IMG/VR virus record: IMGVR_UViG_3300037249_000541
Span: 32,001-96,000 of that record
DNA length: 64,000 bases
Reading direction: 5' to 3' (one strand)
DNA from: a virus
Lineage: Duplodnaviria; Caudoviricetes
In this document: piece by piece, positions 25,430-59,713 of the stretch
How positions within the stretch are numbered: the stretch's first letter is position 1
Layout: each line of letters begins with the position of its first letter
Made by a program: the position numbers and the translations under genes
The notes under the pieces: model-generated
Told to the model about the DNA's origin: nothing
Databases searched by the model: none
Seen by the model: the letters and a program-made list of their open reading frames with translations, nothing else

Positions 25430-25450
25430 TTTTATTATGTTTTTAGTTTG

Positions 25451-25524
25451 TACTGAGATTAGGACTTGAACCTAAATAAACAAGAGCCACAATCTTGTGC
25501 TTTGCCAATTAAGCTATCTCAGCC
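25451..25524 (-). tRNA. tRNA-His(GTG)
   Basis: Cloverleaf; anticodon arm CAAGA-TTGTGGC-TCTTG. Confidence 0.85.
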
Positions 25525-25528
25525 TTTG

Positions 25529-25601
25529 TCTGGGTGGCAAGGCTCGAACTTGCGACCACTTGCTCCCAAAGCAAGCATACTACCTACTGTACTACACCCA
25601 G
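25529..25601 (-). tRNA. tRNA-Pro(TGG)
   Basis: Cloverleaf; CTTGC-TTTGGGA-GCAAG. Confidence 0.88.
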
Positions 25602-25607
25602 ATTATA

Positions 25608-25820
25608 TTATTGCTCACCGTTTTCTGCATTGCTTATAAATTGTTCTAAAGCTTTATCAGCCTTATCTAATTCCATTAATAAAGCATGAACTTTAATTAG
25701 GTGTTTAATAGATTTTATTTCCTCCTCAAGTGATTCTATTTTACACCATACTTCACATATTGCTATTAGCATTGTTATGAGCAATACTACTGTTAATGTT
25801 ATTCCAATTTCTAACCACAT
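25608..25820 (-). CDS. Small membrane protein
   Basis: N-terminal TM helix plus coiled coil. Confidence 0.45.
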   Translation of the reverse strand: MWLEIGITLTVVLLITMLIAICEVWCKIESLEEEIKSIKHLIKVHALLMELDKADKALEQFISNAENGEQ

Positions 25821-25821
25821 T

Positions 25822-26097
25822 TTATTTTAGTTTTATAGCGTCTTTACAAAAAGTACTTGCCTTTTCAATATCAGTATTTTCTATTTTACTTATATCTACT
25901 TGTACAACATTGCCGATAGGAGCATACCATTTCTTATACCATGCTCTAAAGAATTTTAATTCTTCAAGCCAAAATCTTAGCTGTTGATGTTCTTTCGCAC
26001 ATTGAGTGCAACCTTCACTCTTTTCTATACAATGTTGTATAGCCTCATCTAAGGTCATTAGAGTATTAGGTGCTGTATTACATAATGTTTCTTCCAT
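25822..26097 (-). CDS. Hypothetical protein
   Basis: TLDEAIQHC..C..EHQQL..WL.EL motif; start moved to MEETL because the longer ORF overlaps tRNA-Ser. Confidence 0.55.
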   Translation of the reverse strand: MEETLCNTAPNTLMTLDEAIQHCIEKSEGCTQCAKEHQQLRFWLEELKFFRAWYKKWYAPIGNVVQVDISKIENTDIEKASTFCKDAIKLK

Positions 26098-26115
26098 AGT
26101 ATTTTTTATTGTTAG

Positions 26116-26202
26116 CGGAGAGTGTAGGACTCGAACCCACAGACCACTCATCGCAGTCAACGGTTTTCAAAACCGTCGCATTTACCATTCTGCCAACTCT
26201 CC
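26116..26202 (-). tRNA. tRNA-Ser(TGA)
   Basis: ACGGT-TTTGAAA-ACCGT, long variable arm, G discriminator. Confidence 0.88.
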
Positions 26203-26205
26203 AAG

Positions 26206-26278
26206 TGGAGAAGGTAGGTACTGCCCCTACTCCTATGGATTTTCAGTCCACCGCAATGACTTCATCTGCCACTTCTCC
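26206..26278 (-). tRNA. tRNA-Phe(GAA) with atypical T-loop
   Basis: GTGGA-CTGAAAA-TCCAT; T-loop GGCAGTA instead of TTCRANY. Confidence 0.7.
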
Positions 26279-26624
26279 CATCAATAATTCCACTTTGAAG
26301 CAAATCAAAATATGTACCTCTTTCTAATCTTATACCATGAAACTCTCCATAATCTTCTGTATCTGGTCTTTTAATCTTTGTCTTTAGTATCAGATACTTC
26401 CCATAAGTTTCTTCATCTTTTAACTCAGCATCAAATTCTATTGTAGGATATTTGTTCCTAATGTGCATTGGTTGAGTTTTCAAATAATCATTATATGAAT
26501 CAAACATTGCGGCAACATCTCTTAATATAGCTATTGTAGAGTCAGCTCCTCTCTCATAAACAAAGCAAGGAACTTTTCTTTGCATTGTTATATCGTCTCC
26601 ACTATATCTACTTTCTTTGTCCAT
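26262..26624 (-). CDS. Hypothetical protein
   Basis: 120 aa ORF between tRNAs. Confidence 0.45.
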   Translation of the reverse strand: MDKESRYSGDDITMQRKVPCFVYERGADSTIAILRDVAAMFDSYNDYLKTQPMHIRNKYPTIEFDAELKDEETYGKYLILKTKIKRPDTEDYGEFHGIRLERGTYFDLLQSGIIDGRSGR

Positions 26625-26646
26625 ATTTCATTTTGTTTTTGATTAG

Positions 26647-26718
26647 AGCCTTCTGTTGGAATCGAACCAACGTTTGATGATTACAAGTCAACGGTAATGA
26701 CCATTATACTAAGAAGGC
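26647..26718 (-). tRNA. tRNA-Thr(TGT)
   Basis: Cloverleaf; anticodon loop CTTGTAA. Confidence 0.82.
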
Positions 26719-27227
26719 AACATATCTAAGTAATCTTCATATTCTTCATATAATTCTTCTTCAAGTTTCTTTCTTATCTCATCTTCCGACATATACTTAG
26801 ATTCTTCTGGCTTATATTGTATGCTTCTTATTTTCTGCCATTCAATATCTATTTTTTCTTTTTCTTTTCTTATATTTTCCTTTTCTTTCTCTATATAGTC
26901 TTTATATACTTCTAAGTCAGAAGTTAGATTTATTATTTTATGTTTATGCTCTTCAAGCAATTCTTTGTATGTTGTCAAGTTGTTGTTAATTTTAATCCAA
27001 TTGTCAACAGAAACATCTGTATGCTTGCCGTTAAACAAGATTATTAACTTGTTATTTATGAATTTAAATTCCAAATGTATCTTTGGAAATGGAATGTCAT
27101 TTTCTTTTTGAGCATCAACGAATCTGTTATAATTTTGGATGATTGTCATTATATTCATCATAACCAACATTATAACAGGTTTGTCTTGCTCTCTGATGTC
27201 GCTTCTATTTATTAGATTGAACTCCAT
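26709..27227 (-). CDS. Hypothetical coiled-coil protein
   Basis: 172 aa ORF. Confidence 0.45.
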   Translation of the reverse strand: MEFNLINRSDIREQDKPVIMLVMMNIMTIIQNYNRFVDAQKENDIPFPKIHLEFKFINNKLIILFNGKHTDVSVDNWIKINNNLTTYKELLEEHKHKIINLTSDLEVYKDYIEKEKENIRKEKEKIDIEWQKIRSIQYKPEESKYMSEDEIRKKLEEELYEEYEDYLDMLPS

Positions 27228-27246
27228 ATTGTTTGTTTTTTTTTAG

Positions 27247-27331
27247 TGGGAGAAGTAGGACTCGAACCTACTGTGTTTCTTTGTAACGGTTTTACAGACC
27301 GCCGCCACTCCACCATCGTAGCCGCTCTCCC
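27247..27331 (-). tRNA. tRNA-Tyr(GTA)
   Basis: GCGGT-CTGTAAA-ACCGT, long variable region. Confidence 0.82.
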
Positions 27332-27336
27332 AATCC

Positions 27337-27657
27337 TTATAGCTTTATCCCTTCCTCTTTAATTCTTTTGTAAAGTATTGATTTGTAGTCTCTCATTATT
27401 TGACGTTGCTTATAAAGATTTCCAAACTTTGATTTACCTACATATTCAAGTTCTTTTTTATTTACTGCTTCTATAAAAGCTTCAAGCGAAGATAATTTTG
27501 ATGACAGTTCGTTATATTCTCTTACAAGTCTGTCTTGCCAAGTAGTAGCAGGTGAAGATGGAATTGGTTTTACTTTTTTAATTAAATCGTCCAATATAGT
27601 TTCTAAGTTTGAAACTCTTTTATGTAACGCTTCAATACACATTAATTCTGTAAGCAT
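27337..27657 (-). CDS. crAss001_48-like helical protein
   Basis: RL..EY.EL..KL..L.AFI ... L.KQ...M..Y..IL..RI pattern. Confidence 0.55.
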   Translation of the reverse strand: MLTELMCIEALHKRVSNLETILDDLIKKVKPIPSSPATTWQDRLVREYNELSSKLSSLEAFIEAVNKKELEYVGKSKFGNLYKQRQIMRDYKSILYKRIKEEGIKL

Positions 27658-27687
27658 AATATTAAGTTTTATAAGTTTTAATAGTCG

Positions 27688-27759
27688 TAGCCTCTATTGG
27701 AATCGAACCAATATCAAAAGATTAGAAGTCTTCTATTCTATCCGTTGAACTAAGGGGCC
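27688..27759 (-). tRNA. tRNA-Arg(TCT)
   Basis: GAAGA-CTTCTAA-TCTTT. Confidence 0.85.
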
Positions 27760-27764
27760 ATTAG

Positions 27765-27838
27765 TAGGAGCAGTAGGGCTTGAACCTACGACCGCCAAGG
27801 TATAAGCTTGGAACTCTAACCAACTGAGTTATGCTCCT
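27765..27838 (-). tRNA. tRNA-Ile(TAT)
   Basis: Perfect cloverleaf; CCAAG-CTTATAC-CTTGG. Confidence 0.82.
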
Positions 27839-27922
27839 ATTGGGATGCCTTTTTTAACCAGAGGCATCAGAACTGACGATACATTTAAAATTTGCAATTA
27901 TGTATAAATAATCAAAAAAAAG

Positions 27923-27993
27923 TAGCGGATAGCGGACTCGAACCGCTGTGCCTTGGTTATGAGCCAAGTGAGTAACCTCTACTCTAATCCGCA
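27923..27993 (-). tRNA. tRNA-Met(CAT), initiator-like
   Basis: CTTGG-CTCATAA-CCAAG; 1:72 mismatch. Confidence 0.82.
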
Positions 27994-27996
27994 GTG

Positions 27997-28085
27997 AGAG
28001 AAATAGAGGAATCGAACCTCTCGAAACTCTAAGAACACCAGCAAGCTGGTCTGTCCCTCATTGAGTAACGCCATCTTTATTTCTC
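27997..28085 (-). ncRNA. Atypical tRNA-like RNA
   Basis: Acceptor stem GAGAAAT/ATTTCTC and T-arm AGAGG-TTCGATT-CCTCT, but no canonical D or anticodon arm. Confidence 0.55.
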
Positions 28086-28090
28086 ATTTG

Positions 28091-28161
28091 CGGAGAAGCA
28101 AGGAATCGAACCTCGATTAACTGGTTAACAGCCAGCCGCTCTGCCGTTGAGCTACATCTCC
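28091..28161 (-). tRNA. tRNA-Asn(GTT)
   Basis: GCTGG-CTGTTAA-CCAGT. Confidence 0.85.
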
Positions 28162-28329
28162 ATAAAAGCTCCTGCTATAAATGAACAAAAAAAATTAAAT
28201 ATTACATTTAAGGTTCTACATTAATATATATAAAAGTAACAAACACACCACCCAAACTAACTTATTAAGCAGGAGCCATAATATAAAAACTTACAAAAAA
28301 CAAAAAAAACAAAAAAAAACTTCAAAAAG

Positions 28330-28411
28330 TACCCTAAGTAGGACTCGAACCTACACACCTCTCGGCACTTGCTCCTAAGGCAAGCGTGGCTGCCAGTTAC
28401 ACCATTAGGGC
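28330..28411 (-). tRNA. tRNA-Leu(TAG)
   Basis: CTTGC-CTTAGGA-GCAAG, long variable arm. Confidence 0.88.
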
Positions 28412-28414
28412 ATT

Positions 28415-28482
28415 TGTTAGATGCTTATAACGTGCTACCGTTACACTAAGGAGTCGAACCTATCTTTTACATTCATCTAACA
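28415..28482 (-). ncRNA. Circularly permuted tRNA-elbow mimic (T-arm before D-arm)
   Basis: Terminal stem TGTTAGATG/CATCTAACA enclosing AGG-TTCGACT-CCT then GTG-TAACGGTAG-CAC. Confidence 0.6.
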
Positions 28483-28485
28483 TTG

Positions 28486-28571
28486 TACTACTGACAAGAA
28501 TCGAACTTGCAAGAACATTTCTGTTCGGTGGATTTTAAGTCCACTGCGTTTACCAGTTTCGCCACAGTAGC
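28486..28571 (-). tRNA. tRNA-Leu(TAA)
   Basis: GTGGA-CTTAAAA-TCCAC, long variable arm. Confidence 0.88.
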
Positions 28572-28607
28572 ATCTGCATTTACAATATGTCAAAGAACTA
28601 TTGTTTG

Positions 28608-28679
28608 TTGCCCAACAAGGATTTGAACCCTGACCACAAGAACCAAAATCTTGGGTGCTAACCGTTACACCATTAGGCA
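28608..28679 (-). tRNA. tRNA-Gln(TTG)
   Basis: CAAGA-TTTTGGT-TCTTG. Confidence 0.85.
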
Positions 28680-28737
28680 GTCTTAGATTCTTTTTCGAGT
28701 GTAGAATCTAAAAGAACACTGAACACATAGAAATAGT

Positions 28738-49764: not shown

Positions 49765-50220
49765 TTAGAAGTCTTCGCCTTCTGCAATTGCCTGCTGCTG
49801 GTCGATGTATGCCTGAAGCTGTTCAGGAGACATCTTGGTGAGCAACTGAGCTTCTGCCTTCTCTTTCTGCTCCTTAGCGAGTTCGACATTGCGCTGCGCC
49901 TTACGCTTCCTCTCGGCAGCGTCAGCTTGCTCTTTCTTGCTGTCGTAGATGCCTTTGATTACTTCAAAGGTGAACTTGTCCTTCTTTGAAGCCTTGCTAT
50001 CCTCGACGAAATAGCTTGTCGTGCCGTTTGCGTCAGAGATTTTCTTCTCATAACGCTTGCCGATAGCGGCAATTGTGGGGAGAGATTCGTCAACCAAGTC
50101 CTGTACGGGCATGAATTCGCCGTCTGCGGTTTCTACTTGGAGGTGCATCTCAACTGCTTTCTGGAAGGGAGATACTGTTGTCTGTGCAGCTGCTGCTGCG
50201 ATTGTTGCTGTTTCAGCCAT
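49765..50220 (-). CDS. Coiled-coil protein (possible paralog of 57169-57660)
   Basis: Ends in M(S/T)PEQ like the 57169 ORF; flanks the RNA array. Confidence 0.55.
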   Translation of the reverse strand: MAETATIAAAAAQTTVSPFQKAVEMHLQVETADGEFMPVQDLVDESLPTIAAIGKRYEKKISDANGTTSYFVEDSKASKKDKFTFEVIKGIYDSKKEQADAAERKRKAQRNVELAKEQKEKAEAQLLTKMSPEQLQAYIDQQQAIAEGEDF

Positions 50221-50282
50221 AATTGATTGATTTATTAATTAATTAATAATACACCGTCTTTGGTTGGACGTGTGTTTTGTTT

Positions 50283-50412
50283 TGACACTTTACATTCTCT
50301 TTTTTCTCCATTGGACCAGTGTGGAATTGAACCACAGACGCAAGGATTTCAACCCTTCGCTCTACCTGCTGAGCTACCAGCCCCTAAAAGAGAATTATAA
50401 TTGTAAGTGTCA
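50283..50412 (-). ncRNA. ACAA-module RNA enclosing a whole Phe-like tRNA
   Basis: TGACACTT-ACAA..ATTCTCTTTT-[tRNA 50312-50383, anticodon arm AAGGG-TTGAAA-TCCTT with 6-nt loop]-AAAAGAGAAT..AAGTGTCA. Confidence 0.75.
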
Positions 50413-50416
50413 TTTG

Positions 50417-50474
50417 TAGTGTAGCCAGGACTCGAACCTGGACGTGTTCCAACACACGTTCCTATATCTACACT
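50417..50474 (-). ncRNA. D-armless tRNA-like RNA
   Basis: AGTGTAG/CTACACT acceptor, ACGTGT/ACACGT hairpin, CCAGG-TTCGAGT-CCTGG T-arm. Confidence 0.6.
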
Positions 50475-50595
50475 AACTCTTACTACGTTGTCCTGGGCTA
50501 AAGCCCAACTCGGAGACATTCAGAGTGCCTTTTACGACGGCCCACGCCTTCGTGATAGAAGGATTGACGTGAGATTACGGAGAATCTCCTTGTCG

Positions 50596-50642
50596 TGGCT
50601 GTTGGAGGAACTGCCCCTCCTTGGTCTTGTTATCCCACAGCC
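50596..50642 (-). ncRNA. tRNA minihelix-like RNA
   Basis: GGCTGT/ACAGCC acceptor plus GGAGG-GGCAGTT-CCTCC T-like arm. Confidence 0.5.
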
Positions 50643-50688
50643 TGTTGAATATGTTTCAATCCAACCCAGTCACCTCATTAGATTTGAT

Positions 50689-51110
50689 AATTCACCGTAT
50701 AAAGTCATATGCTATTGATTACTCGCGGATTGACGTTTCAAACACATAAGTGAATACTCCGTACTGCCCTTTCTTCATCACATAAGTATTCTTGATATAC
50801 AGCTCCTTATCGGCGTACAGGAGATGACTCATTTTCGCCCTTAGTCTTTCCCAAGTGTCAGTAGTCTTCCCCACTTCCAGATTTACCATAAAAATCCCGC
50901 AAGATTTAAACAGTTGCAAGTTTACTCTTGGGTCTTACGTTGACCACACCGACCTGCTTCTCGGCAGGCTCATATCCATTTCGTCAGGCCACGGCACCAA
51001 CTTGGCGTTTAACTATACTCCTTGCGACAATCTAACTGCGTCCAGTTAGCATTGGAAGTGTGTCGAAGTTCGCAACCTGGGTGTTCCCGTGCTGAGATAG
51101 CTGGAGAAAG
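50689..51110 (-). ncRNA. Large structured ncRNA candidate (ROOL-like, copy A)
   Basis: GC-richer stretch with no convincing gene; collinear motifs shared with 61922-62378. Confidence 0.45.
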
Positions 51111-51118
51111 AAATATCT

Positions 51119-51481
51119 CTACAAAAGAAAATCTTTATATACTTGCTTTAAATACCTTTCTTTTATTGCTTCTGCTTTTACGTAAGCTGTTTCGTATTTT
51201 GCATAACCATTAGCATTGGTCTTGTAAAATCTTGCTTGACCATATGTTCGTTCGTCATACCATCTGGTTCCATAACTTTTATATCCATATTCTCTGTCTG
51301 GTGAGAATATGATATTCCATAGAAGTATGAGAAATGTTCCATCGTCATTAATAATGATATCACTAAGCAATCCCATCCTTTTTACAGAGTCATCTTCTTC
51401 ACCGAATCTTACAATAACAGGTTTCCCAAAAAACGGTTTAAGCTTATCTCTTGGTATTTCGATTGGTTTTTTCTTGCTCAT
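51119..51481 (-). CDS. Hypothetical protein
   Basis: ORF 51119-51523; start probably MSKKK. Confidence 0.45.
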   Translation of the reverse strand: MSKKKPIEIPRDKLKPFFGKPVIVRFGEEDDSVKRMGLLSDIIINDDGTFLILLWNIIFSPDREYGYKSYGTRWYDERTYGQARFYKTNANGYAKYETAYVKAEAIKERYLKQVYKDFLL

Positions 51482-51725
51482 CTTGTTGAGTTTTTTGGAT
51501 TGTTTGAATTGCTCTTGCTCCACGACGGAGTAAGAAATCTCCTATTTGCATCTTTATACAATGCCAACGCATTTTACGTAACTCTGTATCATACATCATA
51601 TACCAGAGGTCGCATCCGTCGCATTTCTTTGTAGTTTCGAGATTGCAATCTATATCGCTTAATTGTTTAAGCTTCATAGATTCAATCTCTTCAAACCTTT
51701 TGAATTCTTCTTCTATTTTATTCAT
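51444..51725 (-). CDS. Hypothetical Cys-containing protein
   Basis: 93 aa ORF with CxxC. Confidence 0.4.
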   Translation of the reverse strand: MNKIEEEFKRFEEIESMKLKQLSDIDCNLETTKKCDGCDLWYMMYDTELRKMRWHCIKMQIGDFLLRRGARAIQTIQKTQQDEQEKTNRNTKR

Positions 51726-51752
51726 AGCATTAAAATGTTAATTAATAAAATT

Positions 51753-51823
51753 AGACACTTGATTTTTTGGCAAAAAGCATAATGGTACCGATAATCAGTC
51801 GGGAATCTTTTTTGTAAGTGTCT
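51753..51823 (-). ncRNA. ACAA-module RNA
   Basis: AGACACTT-ACAAAAAA-GATT...AATC-AAGTGTCT. Confidence 0.7.
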
Positions 51824-51829
51824 TTGTTG

Positions 51830-51960
51830 GAGTATTTGAAAAAAATTCATTGAGTCCAGACTAACCTGTTGTCGAGCGGCACACTACCACGTGATGATTT
51901 ACCGTAGCTGTTTCAGACATGGTGCGTCGCCTGGGATTTGAACCCAGATTTTTCAAACTC
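51830..51960 (-). ncRNA. Circularly permuted tRNA mimic (YrlA-like topology)
   Basis: Terminal stem GAGTTTGAAAAA/TTTTTCAAATACTC; T-arm, then GCGACGC-ACCA, loop, GTGCCGC, then D-arm GAC-AACAGGTTA-GTC. Confidence 0.65.
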
Positions 51961-51964
51961 ATTG

Positions 51965-52086
51965 TGCAGCGAGCAGGAGTTGAACCTGCGTTTTCGGATT
52001 GGAATATTCTAACGATGTTTTTGTGAGTAAGTAATCTTACTTAAATGTTATAGTGCCGACGTTCTAACCAACTAAACTATCGCTGT
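51965..52086 (-). ncRNA. Trp-like tRNA with ACAA module inserted in the anticodon arm
   Basis: Intact acceptor, D and T arms; insert AAGTAAG-ATTA-CTTACTC-ACAAAAAC; residual TTCCAA-TCCGA. Confidence 0.7.
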
Positions 52087-52092
52087 GTGTAT

Positions 52093-52149
52093 TGTCACTT
52101 ATTGGCAAAATTAGATAACAATTTGTTTTTTACTAATTTGTAAGTGACA
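52093..52149 (-). ncRNA. ACAA-module RNA
   Basis: TGTCACTT-ACAA-ATTAGTAAAA...TTTTGCCAAT-AAGTGACA. Confidence 0.7.
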
Positions 52150-52218
52150 TCGAAAACATTAATAACCTAAACGTAATAAAAACATAAATCCATGTTACAG
52201 CATCAAGATTACAAATTG

Positions 52219-52291
52219 TGTGTCAAGAGGGAATCGAACCCTCGACCCACGCATTAAAAGTGCGTTGCTCTACCAACTGAGCTATTGACAC
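52219..52291 (-). tRNA. tRNA-Lys(TTT)
   Basis: Perfect cloverleaf; ACGCA-CTTTTAA-TGCGT. Confidence 0.9.
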
Positions 52292-52294
52292 ATA

Positions 52295-52428
52295 AAATGC
52301 AAATACTCCATATAGGTTAACTGTTCCATTCGACACGCCTCTTCCGAACATTCCAGGTCTGAGTCATACGGTTTAACAGCCATGAGATAGAGATAGGTGT
52401 GCGTCATCTCAGGCGTGTATTTGCATTT
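52295..52428 (-). ncRNA. Structured ncRNA candidate
   Basis: 12-bp terminal inverted repeat AAATGCAAATAC/GTATTTGCATTT; internal ACACGCCT/AGGCGTGT. Confidence 0.45.
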
Positions 52429-52440
52429 GTTTTTTTTATT

Positions 52441-52503
52441 TGATACTTATGTCAACGGGTTAGATTAAAAGTCTAATGTTTTTTATTTGTTTTGTAAGTA
52501 TCA
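52441..52503 (-). ncRNA. ACAA-module RNA carrying an isolated Lys(UUU) anticodon stem-loop
   Basis: TGATACTT-ACAAAAC..TTAGA-CTTTTAA-TCTAA..AAGTATCA. Confidence 0.75.
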
Positions 52504-52523
52504 TCGTTCCATGAATGACGCGA

Positions 52524-52886
52524 TTAAACAACCGCGTTTTCTTTCTCTTTGTCAAAACATTTGTTCTGCAATATTTGACGGAAATATTCTTCTGCATCAC
52601 CAAAAGATTCAAAATCTCTTTCGATGCAAGATTTATATTCTTTGCCTACCTTTAATAGTTTAAAGGTTTGGCTTAGTCCATAAATAACACAGTTAGTTAC
52701 CGTAAAATCAAATATTACTTTACCATTATCATCTTTTCGTGAAATAATAGAAATCTTTGCCATCATTAATGGTATGTAATGGCTATGTTCGTATTTCCTG
52801 AAATTCCACGAATTGATTCGTGTTAATGCAGAAATAAATGCTAACTTTAAAAATTGATAACTATTTGTCATTTCCCTTATAATCAT
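52524..52886 (-). CDS. Hypothetical protein
   Basis: 120 aa ORF inside the RNA array. Confidence 0.4.
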   Translation of the reverse strand: MIIREMTNSYQFLKLAFISALTRINSWNFRKYEHSHYIPLMMAKISIISRKDDNGKVIFDFTVTNCVIYGLSQTFKLLKVGKEYKSCIERDFESFGDAEEYFRQILQNKCFDKEKENAVV

Positions 52887-52890
52887 TAAA

Positions 52891-52946
52891 TGTCACTTGG
52901 GGTATTTTGATTAGCAGTCAAATCCATTTTGAATTTGTAAGTGACA
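52891..52946 (-). ncRNA. ACAA-module RNA carrying an isolated Ser(GCU) anticodon stem-loop
   Basis: TGTCACTT-ACAA..TTTGA-CTGCTAA-TCAAA..AAGTGACA. Confidence 0.75.
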
Positions 52947-52954
52947 GTGTTTTG

Positions 52955-53067
52955 CGGACAGGATAGGACTCGAACCTATGACATCGGCATTAACAGTGCA
53001 ATTCGTTAGTTTTGTAAGTAACTAATGCTACTTGTGATACGCGCTCTACCAACTGAGCTACCTGTCC
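52955..53067 (-). ncRNA. tRNA-Asn(GTT) with 40-nt ACAA-module insertion in the anticodon stem
   Basis: CG-[TATCAC-AAGTAGC-ATTA-GTTACTT-ACAAAAC-TAACGAATT]-GCA-CTGTTAA-TGCCG. Confidence 0.78.
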
Positions 53068-53127
53068 ATAATGACGCACCGACCATGGAAGCTTTTACGG
53101 TGCGTCTAAGAGCAACATACTAATATT

Positions 53128-53655
53128 CTAATTCATAGATATTGAAAAATTTGACACTCTGACCATCGTGCTACGTATTCCATCTACATCGTATTCTAAC
53201 ACTTCAATTTTACCATTCTCTGACAATGAACCATCCCAGTTAACCCAATCAACGTTTTTGATTTCATAGGTTTCTCCGTCTTCATCACATTTTAAAGTAA
53301 AACTTGGACGTGTCTTCGCACCTGCAATAAATGATTTCCAGGCCGTTATCAATATAGCTGCTTGGAAATCATTATTTACATCTACCAATGGATAGTATTG
53401 AGTTAAATATTTTGCACATTCGTCATATAGCGAACATTTGGGCTCAAATGCTTTATATCTCAATACACTTATCATCCTGCTGAAGCAAATATCAATAATT
53501 TCATCTATTGTTAATTCTTCATTTAACTTTTGCCTGCCAATAACATATTGTTTGACAAACTCTTTAAGTGTTAAATACGATTTTAACTCTTCACTTAATT
53601 CTTCAATATCTATCTCTTCCTTTTTCTTTGTTTCTTCTGTTTCTTCTTTCTCCAT
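53128..53655 (-). CDS. Hypothetical protein
   Basis: 175 aa ORF inside the RNA array. Confidence 0.5.
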   Translation of the reverse strand: MEKEETEETKKKEEIDIEELSEELKSYLTLKEFVKQYVIGRQKLNEELTIDEIIDICFSRMISVLRYKAFEPKCSLYDECAKYLTQYYPLVDVNNDFQAAILITAWKSFIAGAKTRPSFTLKCDEDGETYEIKNVDWVNWDGSLSENGKIEVLEYDVDGIRSTMVRVSNFSISMN

Positions 53656-53673
53656 TTTGTTATGAAATTTTAT

Positions 53674-53750
53674 TGTCGCTTGTGCTTGCTATCGCGGTTT
53701 TCGGCTGCGAGGTTTGCGTAACTCAATGTGTTATTGTTTTGTAAGCGACA
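53674..53750 (-). ncRNA. ACAA-module RNA (GCTT/AAGC variant)
   Basis: TGTCGCTT-ACAAAAC...TCGC..CCGAAAA..GCGA...AAGCGACA. Confidence 0.7.
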
Positions 53751-53782
53751 TGAACTAAACCGTATATGAGATAAAACAAAAG

Positions 53783-53905
53783 TGGCGGAGGCTGGACTCG
53801 AACCAGCAACTTTCAAATTATCAGTTTGACTATCTTAACCTTAAAAGTATTGTTTTTGTAAGTAACATATGTTACTCAACTTTGTTTTTGTTGATATACT
53901 CCGCC
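53783..53905 (-). ncRNA. tRNA-Ile(GAT) with ACAA module inserted in the D-loop
   Basis: GGCGGAG/CTCCGCC acceptor; TATC..[GAGTAAC-ATAT-GTTACTT-ACAAAAAC]..GGTTAA-GATA; TCAAA-CTGATAA-TTTGA. Confidence 0.78.
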
Positions 53906-53912
53906 ATATAAT

Positions 53913-54014
53913 TGACACTTCTTGTAGATTTTGGATTTGAACCAAAGAACTTATGATTATTAATCATACGCTATAAACCAACTTAGCTAATCTAAGATTA
54001 TTTTGTAAGTGTCA
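53913..54014 (-). ncRNA. ACAA-module RNA enclosing a tRNA body (AAT anticodon)
   Basis: TGACACTT-ACAAAA..TAGAT-D arm-TATGA-TTAATAA-TCATA-T arm-ATCTA..AAGTGTCA. Confidence 0.72.
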
Positions 54015-54021
54015 TTTTTTG

Positions 54022-54098
54022 CGGTGCTTACGGGAATCGAACCCGTCTGAATCTTCTGCGTGACAGGCAGACGGCCACACCAAGCAGCCCCAAGCACC
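54022..54098 (-). tRNA. tRNA-Asp(GTC)
   Basis: TCTGC-CTGTCAC-GCAGA; G discriminator. Confidence 0.82.
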
Positions 54099-54103
54099 AT
54101 AAT

Positions 54104-54197
54104 AGATACTTATTTGCTTTATGGAATCGAACCATATTTTGATGTCTTTCGACATCATAACAGAACCAATTGTAAACAATTGTTTTTGTAAGTATCT
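54104..54197 (-). ncRNA. ACAA-module RNA with GAAA hairpin and T-arm
   Basis: AGATACTT-ACAAAAAC..TGATGTC-GAAA-GACATCA..TATGG-TTCGATT-CCATA..AAGTATCT. Confidence 0.72.
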
Positions 54198-54242
54198 TTC
54201 TATTCACCTAATTACTATGAAAAATTACAAACATTCCAATTG

Positions 54243-54317
54243 TAGTGGGTACGGGATTTGAACCCGTGACTTCAGCGTGAAAGGCTGATGACTTAAACCT
54301 GGCTTGTCGAACCCACC
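54243..54317 (-). tRNA. tRNA-Glu(TTC)
   Basis: TCAGC-CTTTCAC-GCTGA. Confidence 0.87.
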
Positions 54318-54385
54318 ATCCAAAGTATGCGTTATCACAACGCATACAAGATAATTTAAATTAATTATTATTTGACAAAAAAACG

Positions 54386-54495
54386 TGGGCGTGGAAGGAA
54401 TCGAACCTTCTGATTTAATTGATGTGCCATTAATCATATTTTTTATTTGTGTGTATTGTAAGTGACAGAGTATCACTTGTTCTCTGTTCACGCCC
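54386..54495 (-). ncRNA. tRNA-like RNA with ACAA module replacing the D-arm
   Basis: GGGCGTG/CACGCCC acceptor; AAGTGAT-ACTCT-GTCACTT-ACAA; GAAGG-TTCGATT-CCTTC T-arm. Confidence 0.7.
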
Positions 54496-54505
54496 ATATA
54501 AAAAT

Positions 54506-54605
54506 TGATACTTGTTTTATTGCTATTGGAATCGAACCAATGATACAAGGATTTTCAGTCCTTTGCTCTACCTCTGAGCTAAGCTTTTTGGTCTTGTAAG
54601 TATCA
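54506..54605 (-). ncRNA. ACAA-module RNA enclosing a tRNA-Phe(GAA) body with truncated acceptor stem
   Basis: TGATACTT-ACAA..GCTC-AGAGGTA-GAGC, AAGGA-CTGAAAA-TCCTT, ATTGG-TTCGATT-CCAAT..AAGTATCA. Confidence 0.78.
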
Positions 54606-54609
54606 TTTG

Positions 54610-54725
54610 TCGAGGAGGTCAGACTCGAACTGACGACCCTTGGAACCCCACGAATGTGATGTTCTTGTGAGTAACTCAAGTTACTTAATTCTAAACCAAT
54701 GCTCTACCAGCTGAGCTACTCCTCG
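54610..54725 (-). ncRNA. Pro-like tRNA with ACAA module inserted in the anticodon loop
   Basis: CGAGGAG/CTCCTCG acceptor; TTGG..[AAGTAAC-TTGA-GTTACTC-ACAA]..TGGGG..CCAA. Confidence 0.72.
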
Positions 54726-54731
54726 ATAAAA

Positions 54732-54894
54732 AACAAGATTTTCTTTACTGCCTAATTCGTCTGGCACTTTCATTACGTCCGCATTATTTGTGCCAGTAAT
54801 TGCCTCATGCAGTCGTTTTGTTGCGCGCATTTGACTGCCCTATTGGTTCTGCAAGGTTCATCTTTCTACTGCTATGAACGAGGAAAATCTTGTT
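54732..54894 (-). ncRNA. Multi-hairpin structured ncRNA candidate
   Basis: Terminal AACAAGATTTTC/GAAAATCTTGTT plus GTTCAT/ATGAAC, GCAGTC/GACTGC, CTGGCAC/GTGCCAG hairpins. Confidence 0.5.
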
Positions 54895-54897
54895 AAG

Positions 54898-55087
54898 TGC
54901 GCTCGTCAGGACTTAAACCTGAATCTACAAATTTACTATAATTATACCATAATATATCTTGACTAATCCCGTGAGCCATTGTTGATGCGCACACGACCGA
55001 GTTCCACGGCTATTTACATTCTTAGGCAATATATTATGATATTAAATTATAATTAATCAATTGCTTTAATTATTAAGCTACAAGCGC
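54898..55087 (-). ncRNA. tRNA-like RNA with greatly extended anticodon arm
   Basis: GCGCTTG/CGAGCGC acceptor, GCTT/AAGC D-stem, TCAGG/CCTGA T-arm; long insert stem ATATCATAATATAT/ATATATTATGGTAT. Confidence 0.6.
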
Positions 55088-55092
55088 GTGTT

Positions 55093-55158
55093 GGTTACTT
55101 ATTTGTCAAATCCCTAATTTGATGCTTCAAAGCAAGCTATTTGAGTTTGTAAGTAACC
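55093..55158 (-). ncRNA. First ACAA-module RNA of the array
   Basis: GGTTACTT-ACAAA...AAGTAACC starting 4 nt after a TAnnTTTG element. Confidence 0.7.
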
Positions 55159-55162
55159 GCTG

Positions 55163-55206
55163 CAAAGATAACAACCCACAGCGAATCACGCAAGGGTTGT
55201 TATCTT
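55163..55206 (-). promoter_or_regulatory. Bacteroidota-type promoter overlapping the terminator hairpin of the vWA gene
   Basis: TATCTTTG (55170-55163) overlapping the 3' arm of AAGATAACAACCC/GGGTTGTTATCTT. Confidence 0.55.
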
Positions 55207-55221
55207 AATGTTTGTTAAAAG

Positions 55222-57081
55222 TTAGATTACGTTGTTCCTGACAACATCGTAACGGTCGCTACGGAAGAACGACAGAAGAGCCGCATAAGAGTCGAACTGT
55301 TCCATATCCCTGAAATTGGTGAGGAACATCTCTATCTGTGAAGGGTTTGCTGGAATGTACATCAGATTTGGCACGGTTGTAATCTGTGCATCTACCGATA
55401 CCTGATTATTGATGTCCATAGCAATGATGAATGGTTTGAAGCCAAGAACTTCCTCTGCTTTTGAAAGCAAGTTCACAACTGAATCCAATCTATTCCTTGA
55501 AGAATTCCATTCGCCGTCAGAGATTATTGTCCAGATTGGATATCTCGCAAATTCATCTTTTACAGCATCTCCTTTGTCAAGAAGGTCTGAGATATGTTCA
55601 ACGATTGCTTCGATATTAGTCCAACCCCAGTCAGCTTTCGCTCTCAAGCAGCAATACAGGTTTTTGTAGTTTTCCAAAAACGATTTTGTTGTGTCAACAA
55701 GCGGAAGGTCAACTTTCTTGATGTTTGGCATCATCAATTGATTTCTAACTTTCTTCATGCCATCAACTTGCCTGTCTATTGTTGTTACAGGAATGACGTT
55801 GTTTCCGAACATGTACACTACGTTCCTTGCCAATGGGTCAGGGTTCTTGTAGAGGCATACAGAAGCAATGAAAGATGCGAAGTTGAATGCCATGCAACCA
55901 TAATTGCTCATTGAGCCTGAACAATCTATGAATACCAAAGAGTTGTAGGGCAGATTCACTTTCTCCTGTACGAATGCTTCAATTTTGAGTTCGTCCACAT
56001 TAGCCGAACAAATCTGTTCGTACAACTCCTTGAAGTTTGTTGCGCCAGTTGTTACCTTAGCTGCTTTCTTCGCTTCCCTTAAAGCTGCTTGCAACTCAGG
56101 TGTTATAGGCTCACCATTCTGTACCTGCTCTTTGATGTCGCGTACTTTCTGTTGTGCTTCCTCTTTAAACTTCTCCCATTCCTCGAACCAAGTTTTCAGA
56201 TTAGGCCATTTGAGGTCATCACTATCCTTCTTCTTGGAATAGAAGATTTTGTTCTTTACGCGGAATCTTGCTGATGCAGGCAAGTTGTTGAGCCATTCCT
56301 TGAATTGCATCTGGTCAAACTCTGCAATCTTTCCTGTAGAGAAGAGTACGCTTTCGAGTTCGCCGTTGTACTCACTGCGCCATTTACGATAACCTACGAA
56401 GTTGACTTTTTCTTCGTTGTTTCCAACATAGCGATACTCCCAACCCATTCTCTGTGAAAGCATCTTGAGAAATTCTCCTTTTGCTTTCATATTGGCTTTT
56501 GTCTCTGGCAACATACGAGTGTGTCCTTGACGAACACCAAACCTTGGAGGTGTCAAGAATTTCGCAACGCAAGTCTTGGCGAATGGATTGTTGCCACGAA
56601 CAATTTTCTCCACGAATTCGCAGAGAGATTCTCTGTACCAACCCTCGTTGAACAAACACCTATTGCTTACGATTGTCGGGTTTTTTGCTTTGACTTTTGC
56701 CGTCTGTACGCGAGACACAAACAACGAGTCCATGCACTGATACTCGCTGATTATGCCTTTGCCGAGGAATACTTTGAACTGTTCTCTTGCGTTTTTCATC
56801 ATCCAGTCAAGTACAACGTTGAATCCTTTGCGGTTGCTGTTGCCACCATTGTCACGCTGTTTACGACCGAATATGTGATGCTGACGGCCTGTGATGTCGC
56901 CAATACCAATTAGAATTGAATAGAATAACTGCAATTTCTCCTTGCTTGTTGCTTCAGAGTATGCAGCTTCTATCATGTCAACGGTGATTGTATTGCCCAT
57001 ATTTTGGAATAACATCATCATGCCGTCGCATCCCTGAAAGGGATTTTCCGATGTTTTGTTGAATGTTACTATTGATGCCAT
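55222..57081 (-). CDS. TROVE/Ro60-like helical repeat + vWA domain protein (DUF2828-like)
   Basis: MIDAS DCSGSM, WG.TN, ISDGEWN; N-terminal LF....GDI.GR...GG...R..F, AKF..P, KV..GA motifs; start placed at MASIVTF (57081). Confidence 0.7.
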   Translation of the reverse strand: MASIVTFNKTSENPFQGCDGMMMLFQNMGNTITVDMIEAAYSEATSKEKLQLFYSILIGIGDITGRQHHIFGRKQRDNGGNSNRKGFNVVLDWMMKNAREQFKVFLGKGIISEYQCMDSLFVSRVQTAKVKAKNPTIVSNRCLFNEGWYRESLCEFVEKIVRGNNPFAKTCVAKFLTPPRFGVRQGHTRMLPETKANMKAKGEFLKMLSQRMGWEYRYVGNNEEKVNFVGYRKWRSEYNGELESVLFSTGKIAEFDQMQFKEWLNNLPASARFRVKNKIFYSKKKDSDDLKWPNLKTWFEEWEKFKEEAQQKVRDIKEQVQNGEPITPELQAALREAKKAAKVTTGATNFKELYEQICSANVDELKIEAFVQEKVNLPYNSLVFIDCSGSMSNYGCMAFNFASFIASVCLYKNPDPLARNVVYMFGNNVIPVTTIDRQVDGMKKVRNQLMMPNIKKVDLPLVDTTKSFLENYKNLYCCLRAKADWGWTNIEAIVEHISDLLDKGDAVKDEFARYPIWTIISDGEWNSSRNRLDSVVNLLSKAEEVLGFKPFIIAMDINNQVSVDAQITTVPNLMYIPANPSQIEMFLTNFRDMEQFDSYAALLSFFRSDRYDVVRNNVI

Positions 57082-57124
57082 TTTGATTATTTTTAATATG
57101 TTTTCGTGTTGTAAGTAACAATTC
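57061..57124 (-). promoter_or_regulatory. ACAA module enclosing the start codon of the vWA gene
   Basis: TGTTACT-T-ACAA...AAAATGGCATCAAT-AGTAACA; 3' arm lies within codons 4-6. Confidence 0.7.
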
Positions 57125-57168
57125 TCGTGGGAAGACTCCACACGAGAGTTGCAATGAGAGAGTTAGAA

Positions 57169-57660
57169 CTACTTGTTGTCAGTAGCAGGGGGTTCAGTTG
57201 TTGGTGCAGGTTCTGTTACAGGTTCGTCAGTTGAAAGAAGCTCTTTCTTCCTTGCTTCCAATGCAGCTACTCTCTGCTCTGGAGTCATCGAAGCATCTTT
57301 TATTGCTTCAATCTCTTTGTCGATTGCTGCAACTGCTTGTGCGTTCTTGTCGTCTTCTGCCTTCCATAGACGGTAGCCATAGATGTAGTAGACGAGGTCT
57401 TTCTGACGTTCAATCCTGTCGATTCGCTCTTTCTCTTCGTCAGACTGAGACCAAGGGTCGCCGTCCTGAGCGTCCTGGAATTTCTTCTTCAGACCATCGT
57501 AGATTTTCTTCAACGAGCCTACATTGAGTTCATTCATAAGCTGCCATGGGTTGTACCTCTGACCAAGGTTTGTAACGATTGTTTCGCCAGCCACTGTGAA
57601 GGCGGCAATCAGTGTGAACAAGGAAGCCTTGTCACTTGTAGTGAAGTTTACTTTTGCCAT
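57169..57660 (-). CDS. Coiled-coil protein between RNA ligase and vWA gene
   Basis: 163 aa; MTPEQR C-terminal motif. Confidence 0.6.
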   Translation of the reverse strand: MAKVNFTTSDKASLFTLIAAFTVAGETIVTNLGQRYNPWQLMNELNVGSLKKIYDGLKKKFQDAQDGDPWSQSDEEKERIDRIERQKDLVYYIYGYRLWKAEDDKNAQAVAAIDKEIEAIKDASMTPEQRVAALEARKKELLSTDEPVTEPAPTTEPPATDNK

Positions 57661-57684: not shown

Positions 57685-58467
57685 TTACTTAGCCGCTTTC
57701 AGTTTCCTAAAATCGACTGTTTTGATTTTTGTTATCACTCTGTTGCCCATTCTGTCGTAGATTGGTACTTCTGGGCGCAATACCAATCCTTCTGCATCAA
57801 GGTTCTTATCTTCGGCTATTGCTGACTTGAAGCCAATAGATACAACATCTATTGCTTCTTCTATTGTCATTTTGCCATAGAATGGAACTGTTGGTGCATT
57901 GAGTTTCTCGGCAATATCTTTCGTCGAATCCCACTCCAAGTACAAGTTATTGACCTTAGTGTCGAATACAATGAATGATACGCCGTTACGAATGTAACCA
58001 CCTCCGCTTTGTATTCCTGCTCCATATCCTTCTCCATAGATTGTCCATTTTGTAGGAATATCATCGATTGTTTCCCACTTATGGTCTTTCCATTCCTCGT
58101 AAGGAATATAAGACTTCAACCCCCAAGCTGCTAATACTTTTTCAGTGGGATAGTTGTCTTCAAGGTGCTTCCTCAATGTTGGTGGAATCTGTGCGTTATC
58201 TGTTTTACCCTTGTAGTCAACTTTGAAATTAACTCCAAGAATCTGACGTATACCTTCTTTGTCTGCTTCTGAATAGACAATCTCGATGGTTACTTCTAAT
58301 CGAATATTTGTGCCATCTATCTTCTCAAAGGCAAGCCAGATGCAATTTTTAAGGTACTCGACAATTTTATCGGAGTAGTCTCCAACAATTATCAAGTCCT
58401 TTGAATCACGCTTAAAGATTGTGTTAATCTTTTGATACGTGTTCTCTGAACGTTTTTGTTTGCTCAT
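57685..58467 (-). CDS. RNA ligase (Rnl2-like nucleotidyltransferase)
   Basis: Motif I EKIDGTN, III YGEGYG, IIIa FIVFD, IV EGLVLR, V KIK. Confidence 0.88.
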   Translation of the reverse strand: MSKQKRSENTYQKINTIFKRDSKDLIIVGDYSDKIVEYLKNCIWLAFEKIDGTNIRLEVTIEIVYSEADKEGIRQILGVNFKVDYKGKTDNAQIPPTLRKHLEDNYPTEKVLAAWGLKSYIPYEEWKDHKWETIDDIPTKWTIYGEGYGAGIQSGGGYIRNGVSFIVFDTKVNNLYLEWDSTKDIAEKLNAPTVPFYGKMTIEEAIDVVSIGFKSAIAEDKNLDAEGLVLRPEVPIYDRMGNRVITKIKTVDFRKLKAAK

Positions 58468-59275: not shown

Positions 59276-59713
59276 CTATTGCTTATACCTTAATCTCAAC
59301 GACAATAATGAAAATAACGTTTTCTTTTTTATTATCTTATATTCATTGCCATTAAGCGTTATTGTTCCTTTTGCCACATCAATGATTCCGTTGTTTTGTT
59401 CAATAAAATCAATACCTAAGATTCCATTTAATCCAAAACTTTCATCAACTTCATCAATATCATTTGTTACGGCTGTTTTTAATTTAAATTCGCAATCACT
59501 TACTTTAATTGGTAATTCATAAAAACCAGCCATTTGAACTCCATTAAGATTGCTTATTTGCATATTTTTCAAATGCTTAAACTGTATCTTTTTCTGCATC
59601 AAAGACCTCATCATTTTGTAGTCTTTGTCATATATAATACTACTATCAGCACCTGTATCTATGCACATTGTTAGCTTAGTGGAATCTACTTCAATTTCTA
59701 TCGTAATATTCAT
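59276..59713 (-). CDS. Retropepsin-like aspartic protease
   Basis: IDTGADSS and GILGIDF motifs. Confidence 0.8.
   Translation of the reverse strand: MNITIEIEVDSTKLTMCIDTGADSSIIYDKDYKMMRSLMQKKIQFKHLKNMQISNLNGVQMAGFYELPIKVSDCEFKLKTAVTNDIDEVDESFGLNGILGIDFIEQNNGIIDVAKGTITLNGNEYKIIKKKTLFSLLSLRLRYKQ

What the first reader, a model, noticed from the sequence alone, without database searches (positions are those of the whole stretch)
57061..57124. The same RNA module sequesters the start codon of the vWA/TROVE-like gene (autoregulation)
Seen: UGUUACU-U-ACAA lies in the leader and its partner AGUAACA lies in codons 4-6 (ATG GCA TCA ATA GTA ACA), so the AUG at 57081 sits inside the module. Inference: the protein represses its own translation when free and is titrated by the array RNAs. 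This is the strongest internal evidence that this protein is the cognate binder.
Basis: partly seen in the sequence, partly recalled or inferred. Interest (0 to 1): 0.85.

Follow-up and report, generated by a model that had tools for sequence, protein, structure and literature searches.

The report
Start-codon-bracketing RNA helix, Ro60-like phage gene
In a crAss-like gut phage, the mRNA leader of a Ro60-like protein gene carries the same short RNA helix that marks about 15 neighbouring tRNA-like RNAs, placed so that it brackets the start codon; this is conserved in about 90% of related phages and is most simply read as a feedback switch on the protein's own translation, though binding is untested.

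Summary
**Observation: confirmed.** On the minus strand, UGUUACU-U-ACAA (57120-57109) pairs with AGUAACA (57070-57064, codons 4-6). The AUG (57081) sits in the 43-nt loop. It is bracketed, not base-paired.

**Start codon.** Homologue N-termini align from the ATG at 57081, not from the GTG at 57141.

**Conservation.**
- 34 of 38 IMG/VR homologue loci have a perfect partner of 7 bp or more; 53 of 67 distinct metagenome leaders bracket the AUG with such a stem.
- The 3' arm moves between -22 and +51, and the arms change in step (for example CGTTACTT/AAGTAACG and TTTTCACTT/AAGTGAAAA).
- The Ser-Asn under the 3' arm is AGT-AAC in 22 of 22 leaders, against 6% elsewhere in the same genes.
- Bracketing is specific to this gene: it accounts for 29 of the 30 modules that enclose an ORF start.

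**Co-occurrence.** Module arrays travel with this gene and a conserved 163-aa upstream ORF. Five relatives without the gene have no arrays.

**Protein.** It is an alpha-solenoid followed by a MIDAS vWA domain. Full-length fold hits are all Ro60/TROVE (Z 11-13). There is no TROVE sequence match, and the N-domain alone matches nothing.

**Interpretation: partly supported.** A protein-clamped translational operator is the best reading (about 0.45). Which protein binds is not shown.

The scan also noted this stretch in an overlapping window of the same genome.

The parts
57114..57120 (-). 5' arm of the leader helix, UGUUACU. It fits the array consensus W-G-W-Y-A-C-U-U.
57109..57113 (-). Unpaired U followed by the invariant single-stranded ACAA tail of the module
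   Evidence: ACAA follows the arm in all 226 modules tabulated; the scan required it
57082..57108 (-). A-rich leader with no predicted structure, inside the loop
57079..57081 (-). Start codon of the Ro60-like vWA gene; it lies in the loop of the module
   Evidence: homologue N-termini align from this ATG (N8, N13, P14, F15, G17 invariant)
57064..57070 (-). 3' arm AGUAACA in codons 4-6 (+11 to +17)
57121..57124 (-). Optional 5' extension of the helix (GAAU). It pairs with 57061-57064 across a one-base bulge.
   Evidence: MFE and centroid
57061..57063 (-). Optional 3' extension of the helix (UUC)
55222..57081 (-). 619-aa protein: N-terminal alpha-solenoid (about residues 1-375) and C-terminal vWA domain with a MIDAS motif (D386, S388, S390, T488, D522 invariant)
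57124..57146 (-). G+C-rich hairpin (CUCGUGUGG / CCCACGAG) between the ORF163 stop codon and the module. It has no U tract.
57169..57660 (-). 163-aa ORF of no known family, conserved directly upstream of the vWA gene. It is an alternative or joint candidate binder.
   Evidence: no hit
57685..58467 (-). RNA ligase (PF09414). It is not part of the conserved core: absent from the 38 close loci, present in the vWA-negative relative cr116_1.
50283..55158 (-). Array of about 14 further helix-ACAA modules carrying tRNAs, tRNA-like RNAs, small hairpins or lying in ORF leaders

Best explanation
The leader of the Ro60-like vWA gene holds an 'empty' copy of the array's helix-ACAA module. Its only cargo is the translation initiation region.

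Proposed mechanism:
- Alone, the A/U-rich helix closing a 43-nt loop is marginal, so the mRNA is normally open and translated.
- A protein that recognises the helix plus ACAA clamps it. This is most probably the gene's own product, perhaps together with the conserved 163-aa upstream protein.
- In this phage the 3' strand lies at +11 to +17, which the 30S subunit must hold single-stranded. In all bracketing relatives one arm lies within about 35 nt of the AUG. Clamping would therefore block initiation.
- The roughly 15 array RNAs carry the same helix and would compete for the protein. Synthesis would then track the amount of unbound RNA.

Shown: the structure, its conservation with relocation and compensatory changes, the synonymous-site constraint, gene-specific bracketing, and co-occurrence of modules with the gene.

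Inferred: who binds, that binding represses, and titration.
For: 1. Sequence and fold: MFE -5.7 kcal/mol uses the helix.
2. The start is at 57081.
3. Conservation. In 38 IMG/VR loci, 37 have the motif within 100 nt upstream and 34 have a perfect partner of 7 bp or more; 29 of those bracket the AUG. In 67 further distinct metagenome leaders, 53 bracket with 7 bp or more and 7 with 6 bp.
4. The 3' arm sits at -22, -15, -10, +7, +11, +20 to +30 or +51, with matched arm changes: CGTTACTT/AAGTAACG, TGTTACTT/AAGTAACA, AGTTACT/AGTAACT, TTTTACTT/AAGTAAAA. In a homologue of 30% identity it is TTTTCACTT/AAGTGAAAA.
5. Ser-Asn under the arm is AGT-AAC in 22 of 22 leaders, against 4 of 70 elsewhere in the same genes.
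6. 29 of the 30 modules that enclose an ORF start are this gene's. Other array ORFs have the module 1-50 nt upstream.
7. In this genome, modules occur only from this leader down to 50407. In relatives the array starts at this leader and resumes right after the stop codon.
8. Co-occurrence: of 16 records with genuine modules, 14 have the gene and the 2 exceptions are 56% and 5% complete. Five vWA-negative Steigviridae have 0-1 motif copies, against 13 here.
9. Fold: the top 10 PDB hits are all Ro60/TROVE, E 2.7e-6 to 6e-5. VIA gives Z 13.3 with 399 residues aligned (9kop) and 12.3 with 387 aligned (Rsr, 2nvo).
Against: - No binding or expression data of any kind.
- No TROVE sequence match. The PDB profile hit covers only the MIDAS stretch, E 0.05-0.09.
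- The N-domain alone finds no Ro60: best Z 5.8, Foldseek E of 0.02 or higher. Full-length TM-scores are low, 0.3-0.45.
- ORF163 co-occurs with the modules as well as the vWA gene does.
- In the main clade the six inner pairs never vary. Formal covariation rests on the outer pair only: covariation score 0.090 against 0.068, reached by 18 of 500 shuffles.
- The AUG itself is unpaired.
- Distant homologues L047, L049, L050, L082 and L083 do not bracket the AUG.
- The modules also sit inside tRNA bodies, which may point to RNA processing rather than simple binding.
Confidence: 0.45

Rival explanations
1. The helix is real, but it is a general processing or stability signal of the array. It would be read by another factor, such as ORF163 alone, a host RNase or an RNA ligase pathway. 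In the vWA leader it would define the mRNA 5' end, or destroy the initiation region by cleavage. There would be no autoregulation by the vWA protein.
For: - The same module flanks tRNAs and sits as a tight hairpin inside tRNA bodies. For example, a 40-nt insert at 53000-53039 must be removed to restore the tRNA-Asn(GUU) anticodon arm.
- Modules also lie in the leaders of other ORFs.
- ORF163 is as well conserved beside the modules as the vWA gene.
- Neighbours of distant homologues are RNA-repair enzymes: Thg1, HD and RNA ligase.
Against: - AUG bracketing is specific to the vWA gene. A generic punctuation signal would not be.
- An 8-bp helix is too short for RNase III (general knowledge).
- The RNA ligase does not track the modules: it is present in module-free cr116_1 and absent from the close loci.
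- No known ribozyme or RNA family matches.
Confidence: 0.3
2. The pairing acts in cis without any protein. It would be a weak leader structure that tunes translation or mRNA stability, and it shares the motif only because the leader descends from an array unit.
For: - The helix is in the MFE on its own: -5.7 kcal/mol, z -1.7.
- The leader arm xGUUACUU is orthologously conserved rather than freely varying.
Against: - The stability is marginal.
- The invariant unpaired ACAA tail and the near-invariant G at -4 (215 of 226) indicate sequence-specific recognition, not just pairing.
- The module tracks specific genes across phages.
Confidence: 0.12
3. The motif is a promoter or other DNA-level signal, and the downstream complement arises by chance or from codon usage.
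For: - The motif precedes most units of the array.
- CTTACA followed 18 nt later by AATAAT scores as a weak sigma-70-like site at 57115-57086.
Against: - The partner relocates and changes in step with the arm.
- AGT-AAC is used in 22 of 22 leaders, against 6% elsewhere.
- The motif also occurs inside tRNA bodies as a hairpin, one copy with a U-G wobble on the sense strand.
- Only 2 of about 15 copies have a -10-like box.
- The Bacteroidetes -7 motif TAnnTTTG is not enriched: 86 found against 85 expected.
Confidence: 0.03

Closest known systems
Ro60 (Rsr) with Y RNAs / YrlA, including phage-encoded TROVE proteins
   Same: - The protein is a helical-repeat domain followed by a MIDAS vWA domain, and full-length fold hits are all Ro60.
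- The RNAs are encoded on the same strand within a few kb.
- Each RNA has a common stem with a conserved 5'-strand motif and a tRNA-like domain (PMC4201824).
- RNA-repair genes lie nearby.
   Different: - No TROVE sequence match, and the N-domain alone is not recognisably Ro60.
- The motif is GWYACUU-ACAA, not GNCGAAN0-1G or GGUCCGA.
- No Rfam Y RNA or YrlA hit.
- There are about 15 RNAs, not 1-4.
- Modules also occur inside tRNAs and in mRNA leaders.
- I know of no reported Ro60 autoregulatory operator (my own knowledge, plus searches).
Autogenous translational operators that mimic the protein's RNA ligand (E. coli thrS/ThrRS, ribosomal proteins S8, S15 and L1, MS2 coat, T4 RegA and gp32)
   Same: A copy of the ligand's recognition element overlaps the initiation region of the binder's own mRNA, and the real ligands would compete with it.
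   Different: - Binding and repression are not shown here.
- The arms lie about 45-50 nt apart, with the AUG in an open loop rather than in a compact hairpin.
Processing stems that enclose a cargo (rRNA leader-trailer stems, archaeal bulge-helix-bulge sites, T7 RNase III sites)
   Same: - Complementary flanks bracket tRNAs and small RNAs.
- A hairpin version lies inside tRNA bodies like an intron.
   Different: - The helix is only 7-9 bp, with a sequence-specific core and an ACAA tail.
- No bulge-helix-bulge geometry was looked for or shown.
- In the vWA leader the cargo is only the initiation region, not the whole gene.

Membership tests
Ro60/TROVE proteins (PF05731) | Sequence match to the TROVE domain model | tested here: not met
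   No Pfam hit for the protein or for 53 family members. PF05731 finds nothing in the genome at E up to 10, while its controls ring.
Ro60/TROVE proteins (PF05731) | Helical-repeat N-domain followed by a C-terminal vWA domain with a MIDAS motif | tested here: met
   AF2 model with pLDDT 87.7: helices over residues 19-374, Rossmann-like vWA domain over 381-590. D386, S388, S390, T488 and D522 are invariant in 53 sequences.
Ro60/TROVE proteins (PF05731) | Overall fold superposes on solved Ro60 rings | tested here: inconclusive
   Full length: the top 10 Foldseek hits are all Ro60/TROVE, but TM is 0.3-0.45. VIA gives Z 11-13.3 with 360-403 residues aligned, against Z 10-12 for vWA-only hits. N-domain alone: best Z 5.8 and Foldseek E of 0.02 or higher, with no Ro60 listed.
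Ro60/TROVE proteins (PF05731) | Binds a conserved helix of its partner RNAs | not testable with these tools
Y RNA / YrlA | Match to the Rfam covariance models | tested here: not met
   Only tRNA hits at gathering score. No Y RNA or YrlA hit at E up to 1 over 50200-57300.
Y RNA / YrlA | 5' motif GNCGAAN0-1G (bacteria) or GGUCCGA (vertebrates) | tested here: not met
   The consensus of 226 modules is W-G-W-Y-A-C-U-U followed by ACAA. The known motifs are taken from PMC4201824.
Y RNA / YrlA | Encoded within about 4 kb of the protein gene on the same strand, with a terminal stem and a tRNA-like domain | tested here: met
   The array starts at the leader and resumes just after the stop codon, all on the sense strand. 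Cargoes include T-arm GGUUCGAUUCC elements and whole tRNAs.
Autogenous translational operator by ligand mimicry | The operator copies the recognition element of the protein's main RNA ligands | tested here: met
   The leader arm and ACAA tail fit the array consensus. That the array RNAs are this protein's ligands is itself inferred.
Autogenous translational operator by ligand mimicry | The operator overlaps the translation initiation region | tested here: met
   The 3' arm lies at +11 to +17 here. Brackets are found in 29 of 38 and in 60 of 67 homologue leaders. Bracketing is specific to this gene.
Autogenous translational operator by ligand mimicry | The gene product binds the operator and represses its own translation | not testable with these tools
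   This needs binding assays, toeprinting and reporters.

The most novel reading that the evidence does not exclude
A previously undescribed ribonucleoprotein system of crAss-like phages. A highly diverged Ro60-like protein (with a small conserved partner) would bind a shared helix-ACAA handle on about 15 tRNA-mimic RNAs. It would set its own level through a copy of that handle wrapped around its start codon. This would be the first Ro60-type protein with a ligand-mimic translational operator.
Probability: 0.35. Interest if true: 0.85.

Novelty: new variant of a known kind. Interest (0 to 1): 0.7.

Why it matters
Crassvirales are among the most abundant viruses of the human gut, and most of their genes have no known function.

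This helix ties a large, widespread protein family of unknown function to a defined RNA element. The family has more than 1,150 homologues and 141 clusters at 50% identity. The link gives the family a testable ligand and a testable regulatory circuit.

If the protein is a true Ro60 analogue, several things follow:
- Ro/Y-RNA biology would extend to a much more diverged lineage.
- It would show Y-like RNAs used in arrays as tRNA mimics.
- It would supply the first example of ligand-mimic feedback for this class.

Even if another factor reads the helix, the element is a new, strongly conserved cis-signal. Its support includes relocation of the 3' arm, compensatory arm changes and synonymous-site constraint.

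Tried and rejected
- **Start codon.** A GTG start at 57141 or a downstream ATG is rejected by N-terminal conservation.
- **Promoter reading.** Sigma-70 and Bacteroidetes -7 scans were uninformative.
- **G-U against A-C test for RNA-level pairing.** Uninformative at stem flanks and in single-mismatch stems. One U-G wobble was seen by eye in the hairpin at 53016-53033.
- **Formal covariation on the main-clade leader alignment.** Weak, because the six inner pairs are invariant.
- **Sequence links to TROVE.** None, apart from weak E 0.05-0.09 hits over the MIDAS stretch.
- **ESM Atlas.** It points to DUF2828/DUF7788 phage proteins (TM 0.62). No literature on their function was found.
- **N-domain fold searches.** No clear match.
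- **ORF163.** No family in Pfam, PHROGs or the Atlas.
- **INPHARED phages.** No homologue of the vWA protein.
- **Literature.** No description of the motif or of crAss-like promoters was found.
- **Seven lone IMG/VR pattern hits in records without the vWA gene.** These are coding-sequence chance matches.
  - RNA run look-up.
  - Complex prediction for vWA with ORF163.
  - Atlas fold library.
  - Relatives search for a virus record.
  - Profile A2 was too diverse for the metagenome scan, so A1 was used instead.
  - The first structure job was interrupted.

Full report
**What is in the sequence.** The gene lies on the minus strand. Read 5' to 3', the stop codon of a 163-aa ORF (57169) is followed by a G+C-rich hairpin (57146-57124). 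Then comes UGUUACU-U-ACAA (57120-57109), a 27-nt A-rich stretch, and the ATG at 57081. Codons 4-6 (ATA GTA ACA) hold AGUAACA at 57070-57064. The two heptamers are perfectly complementary. GAAU (57124-57121) and UUC (57063-57061) can lengthen the helix to about 10 bp with one bulge. RNAfold puts this helix in the minimum-energy fold of the 74-nt leader at -5.7 kcal/mol, z -1.7. The 7-bp core also appears in the fold of a 171-nt context. The AUG is in the 43-nt loop and is not paired, so 'brackets' is more accurate than 'sequesters'. The 3' arm covers +11 to +17.

**Start codon.** The open frame runs up to a GTG at 57141. Sixteen homologues of 49-88% identity align from the ATG at 57081 (M-x-x-V-x-L-N-K-S-N-x-N-P-F-x-G; N8, N13, P14, F15 and G17 are invariant). 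Nearly all database proteins start there.

**The module family.**
- The motif with up to one mismatch occurs 14 times in the window, against 2.8 +/- 1.8 expected.
- In the full 106,381-bp genome with terminal repeats, GWYACTTACAA occurs 13 times on one strand and never on the other.
- Copies with a perfect complement of 7 bp or more are confined to 50407-57115 on the minus strand: 13 of about 15 there, against 1 of about 30 elsewhere.
- The arms differ between neighbours (UGUC/GACA, UGAU/AUCA, GGUU/AACC, UGAC/GUCA and others) and always match their own partner 40-118 nt downstream.
- Over 226 modules from related phages the 5' strand is W-G-W-Y-A-C-U-U followed by ACAA (which the scan itself required). 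G at -4 is present in 215 of 226.
- Cargoes are whole tRNAs, tRNA-like pieces with a GGUUCGAUUCC T-arm, small hairpins, or nothing but a leader.
- The vWA leader is the first unit of this array.

**Conservation of the leader helix.**
- In 38 IMG/VR loci with a homologue (41-49% identity), 37 have the motif 8-98 nt upstream of the ATG. Thirty-four have a perfect partner of 7 bp or more; 29 of these bracket the AUG and 5 end 2-15 nt upstream of it.
- In 67 further distinct leaders from metagenomes, 53 bracket with 7 bp or more and 7 with 6 bp.
- The 3' arm is not fixed. It lies at -22, -15, -10, +7, +11 (this phage), +17 to +30, or +48 to +51.
- The arms change together: CGTTACTT/AAGTAACG, TGTTACTT/AAGTAACA, AGTTACT/AGTAACT, TTTTACTT/AAGTAAAA and ATGTTACTT/AAGTAACAT.
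- A homologue of only 30% identity (L085) brackets its AUG with TTTTCACTT/AAGTGAAAA.
- In most phages the 3' arm is the Ser-Asn of the conserved K-S-N-x-N-P-F motif. It is AGT-AAC in 22 of 22 distinct leaders, against 4 of 70 Ser-Asn pairs elsewhere in the same genes.
- This phage reads T-S-E at that site, has lost the arm there, and carries it at codons 4-6 instead.
- Within the main clade the six inner pairs never vary, so a column-wise covariation test is weak. The evidence comes from relocation, clade-to-clade compensation and synonymous constraint.
- Five more distant homologues (23-38% identity) have modules nearby but do not bracket the AUG.

**Specific to this gene.** Across the loci and the window, 30 modules enclose the start of an ORF of 60 aa or more, and 29 of them are the vWA leader. 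The other ORFs in the arrays have a cargo-bearing module that ends 1-50 nt upstream of their ATG.

**The protein.**
- Pfam, PHROGs and a TROVE model search give nothing. A family profile against PDB sequences hits TROVE and Ro60 chains only weakly (E 0.05-0.09) over the MIDAS stretch, at the same residue position.
- An AlphaFold2 model from 53 sequences (pLDDT 87.7, pTM 0.83) shows a helical N-domain and a vWA domain.
- Its top ten Foldseek PDB hits are all Ro60/TROVE proteins aligned full length (E 2.7e-6 to 6e-5), with low TM-scores of 0.3-0.45.
- VIA-align gives Z 13.3 with 399 residues aligned (9kop), 12.3 with 387 aligned (Deinococcus Rsr) and 11-12 for human, frog and phage Ro60. vWA-only hits give Z 10-12 with 160-190 residues aligned.
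- The N-domain folded alone (pLDDT 89.7) finds only generic solenoids: best Z 5.8, Foldseek E of 0.02 or higher.
- ESM Atlas neighbours are DUF2828/DUF7788 phage proteins.
- Verdict: Ro60-like architecture, with homology unproven.

**Co-occurrence.**
- The phage is a crAss-like virus. Its TerL is 62% identical to cr116_1 and 54% to IAS virus and the PhiCrAssBcn phages, all Steigviridae.
- None of 50,697 INPHARED records encodes the vWA protein. Five such relatives have 0-1 copies of GWYACTTACAA per 100 kb, the same as the reversed control.
- cr116_1 has many tRNAs and a 40%-identical RNA ligase, but no modules, no vWA gene and no ORF163.
- In the other direction, an IMG/VR scan for one arm pair found 16 records with genuine modules carrying tRNA-like cargo. 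Fourteen encode the protein, and the two exceptions are 56% and 5% complete.
- ORF163 sits directly upstream of the vWA gene in 36 loci (24-32% identity). The RNA ligase does not.
- So the modules travel with the ORF163-vWA pair, not with the ligase.

**Mechanism and rivals.**
- Best reading (0.45): a ligand-mimic translational operator. The helix is too weak to hold alone. A protein that reads the helix plus ACAA would clamp it over the initiation region, and the array RNAs would compete. The gene's own product is the leading candidate because of its Ro60-like build, its universal linkage to the modules and the gene-specific bracket.
- Main rival (0.30): the helix is a processing or stability signal read by another factor. 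This fits the hairpin copies inside tRNA bodies, such as the 40-nt insert at 53000-53039 that splits a tRNA-Asn anticodon stem. It also fits the RNA-repair neighbours of distant homologues.
- A protein-free cis structure (0.12) and a promoter or chance (0.03) fit the data poorly.

**Comparison with what is known.** Phage and bacterial Ro60 proteins with adjacent tRNA-like Y RNAs are established (PMC4201824, PMC7824862). This system differs in several ways: the protein sequence, the RNA motif, the number of RNAs, the use of the handle inside tRNAs, and the copy around the start codon. My literature searches found no description of it.

**Not done.** RNA-seq look-up, complex prediction and the Atlas fold library were unavailable.

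Noticed in passing
window 52955-53067 (-), insert 53000-53039: A tRNA-Asn(GUU) is split inside its anticodon stem by a 40-nt insert that holds the module as a tight hairpin (AAGUAGC-loop-GUUACUU-ACAA, with one U-G wobble). Removing the insert restores CGGCA/CUGUUAA/UGCCG. A normal tRNA-Asn exists at 28090-28161.
   Followed up: partly
window 57169-57660 (-): A 163-aa ORF of no known family lies directly upstream of the vWA gene in 36 related loci (24-32% identity; F6, L50, W70, G95 and P127 invariant). It is absent, together with the vWA gene and the modules, from cr116_1.
   Followed up: partly
L047, L049, L050, L085: Distant vWA homologues (23-30% identity) sit beside Thg1-like, HD-domain, RNA ligase and Band_7 genes. 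This suggests an RNA-repair setting for the whole family.
   Followed up: no
L049 around 4840-5003: One lineage uses a variant tail, ACTTATAA instead of ACTTACAA (8 copies in 12.9 kb), with arms ATTTACTT/AAGTAAAT. The conserved tail may co-vary with the protein lineage.
   Followed up: no
window 25450-28680 (-): A second cluster of 12 ordinary tRNA genes carries no modules. A lone ACTTACAAAA on the opposite strand at 28289 has no partner.
   Followed up: partly
L009-L023, L036, about 35-60 nt upstream of the leader motif: A second conserved stretch, TATAGTTCAAAG ... GAATATCCT, lies between the ORF163 stop codon and the leader module in many relatives. This phage has a G+C-rich hairpin there instead. 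Its function is unknown.
   Followed up: no
L017 near 5937: The vWA reading frame appears shifted at its start (AAATGG, with stops in frame). This may be a frameshift or an assembly error.
   Followed up: no
window 59276-59713 (-): A 145-aa ORF has weak retroviral-type aspartyl protease matches (PF13975, E 7e-6). An 'aspartyl protease' is also annotated in crAss001-type phages.
   Followed up: no
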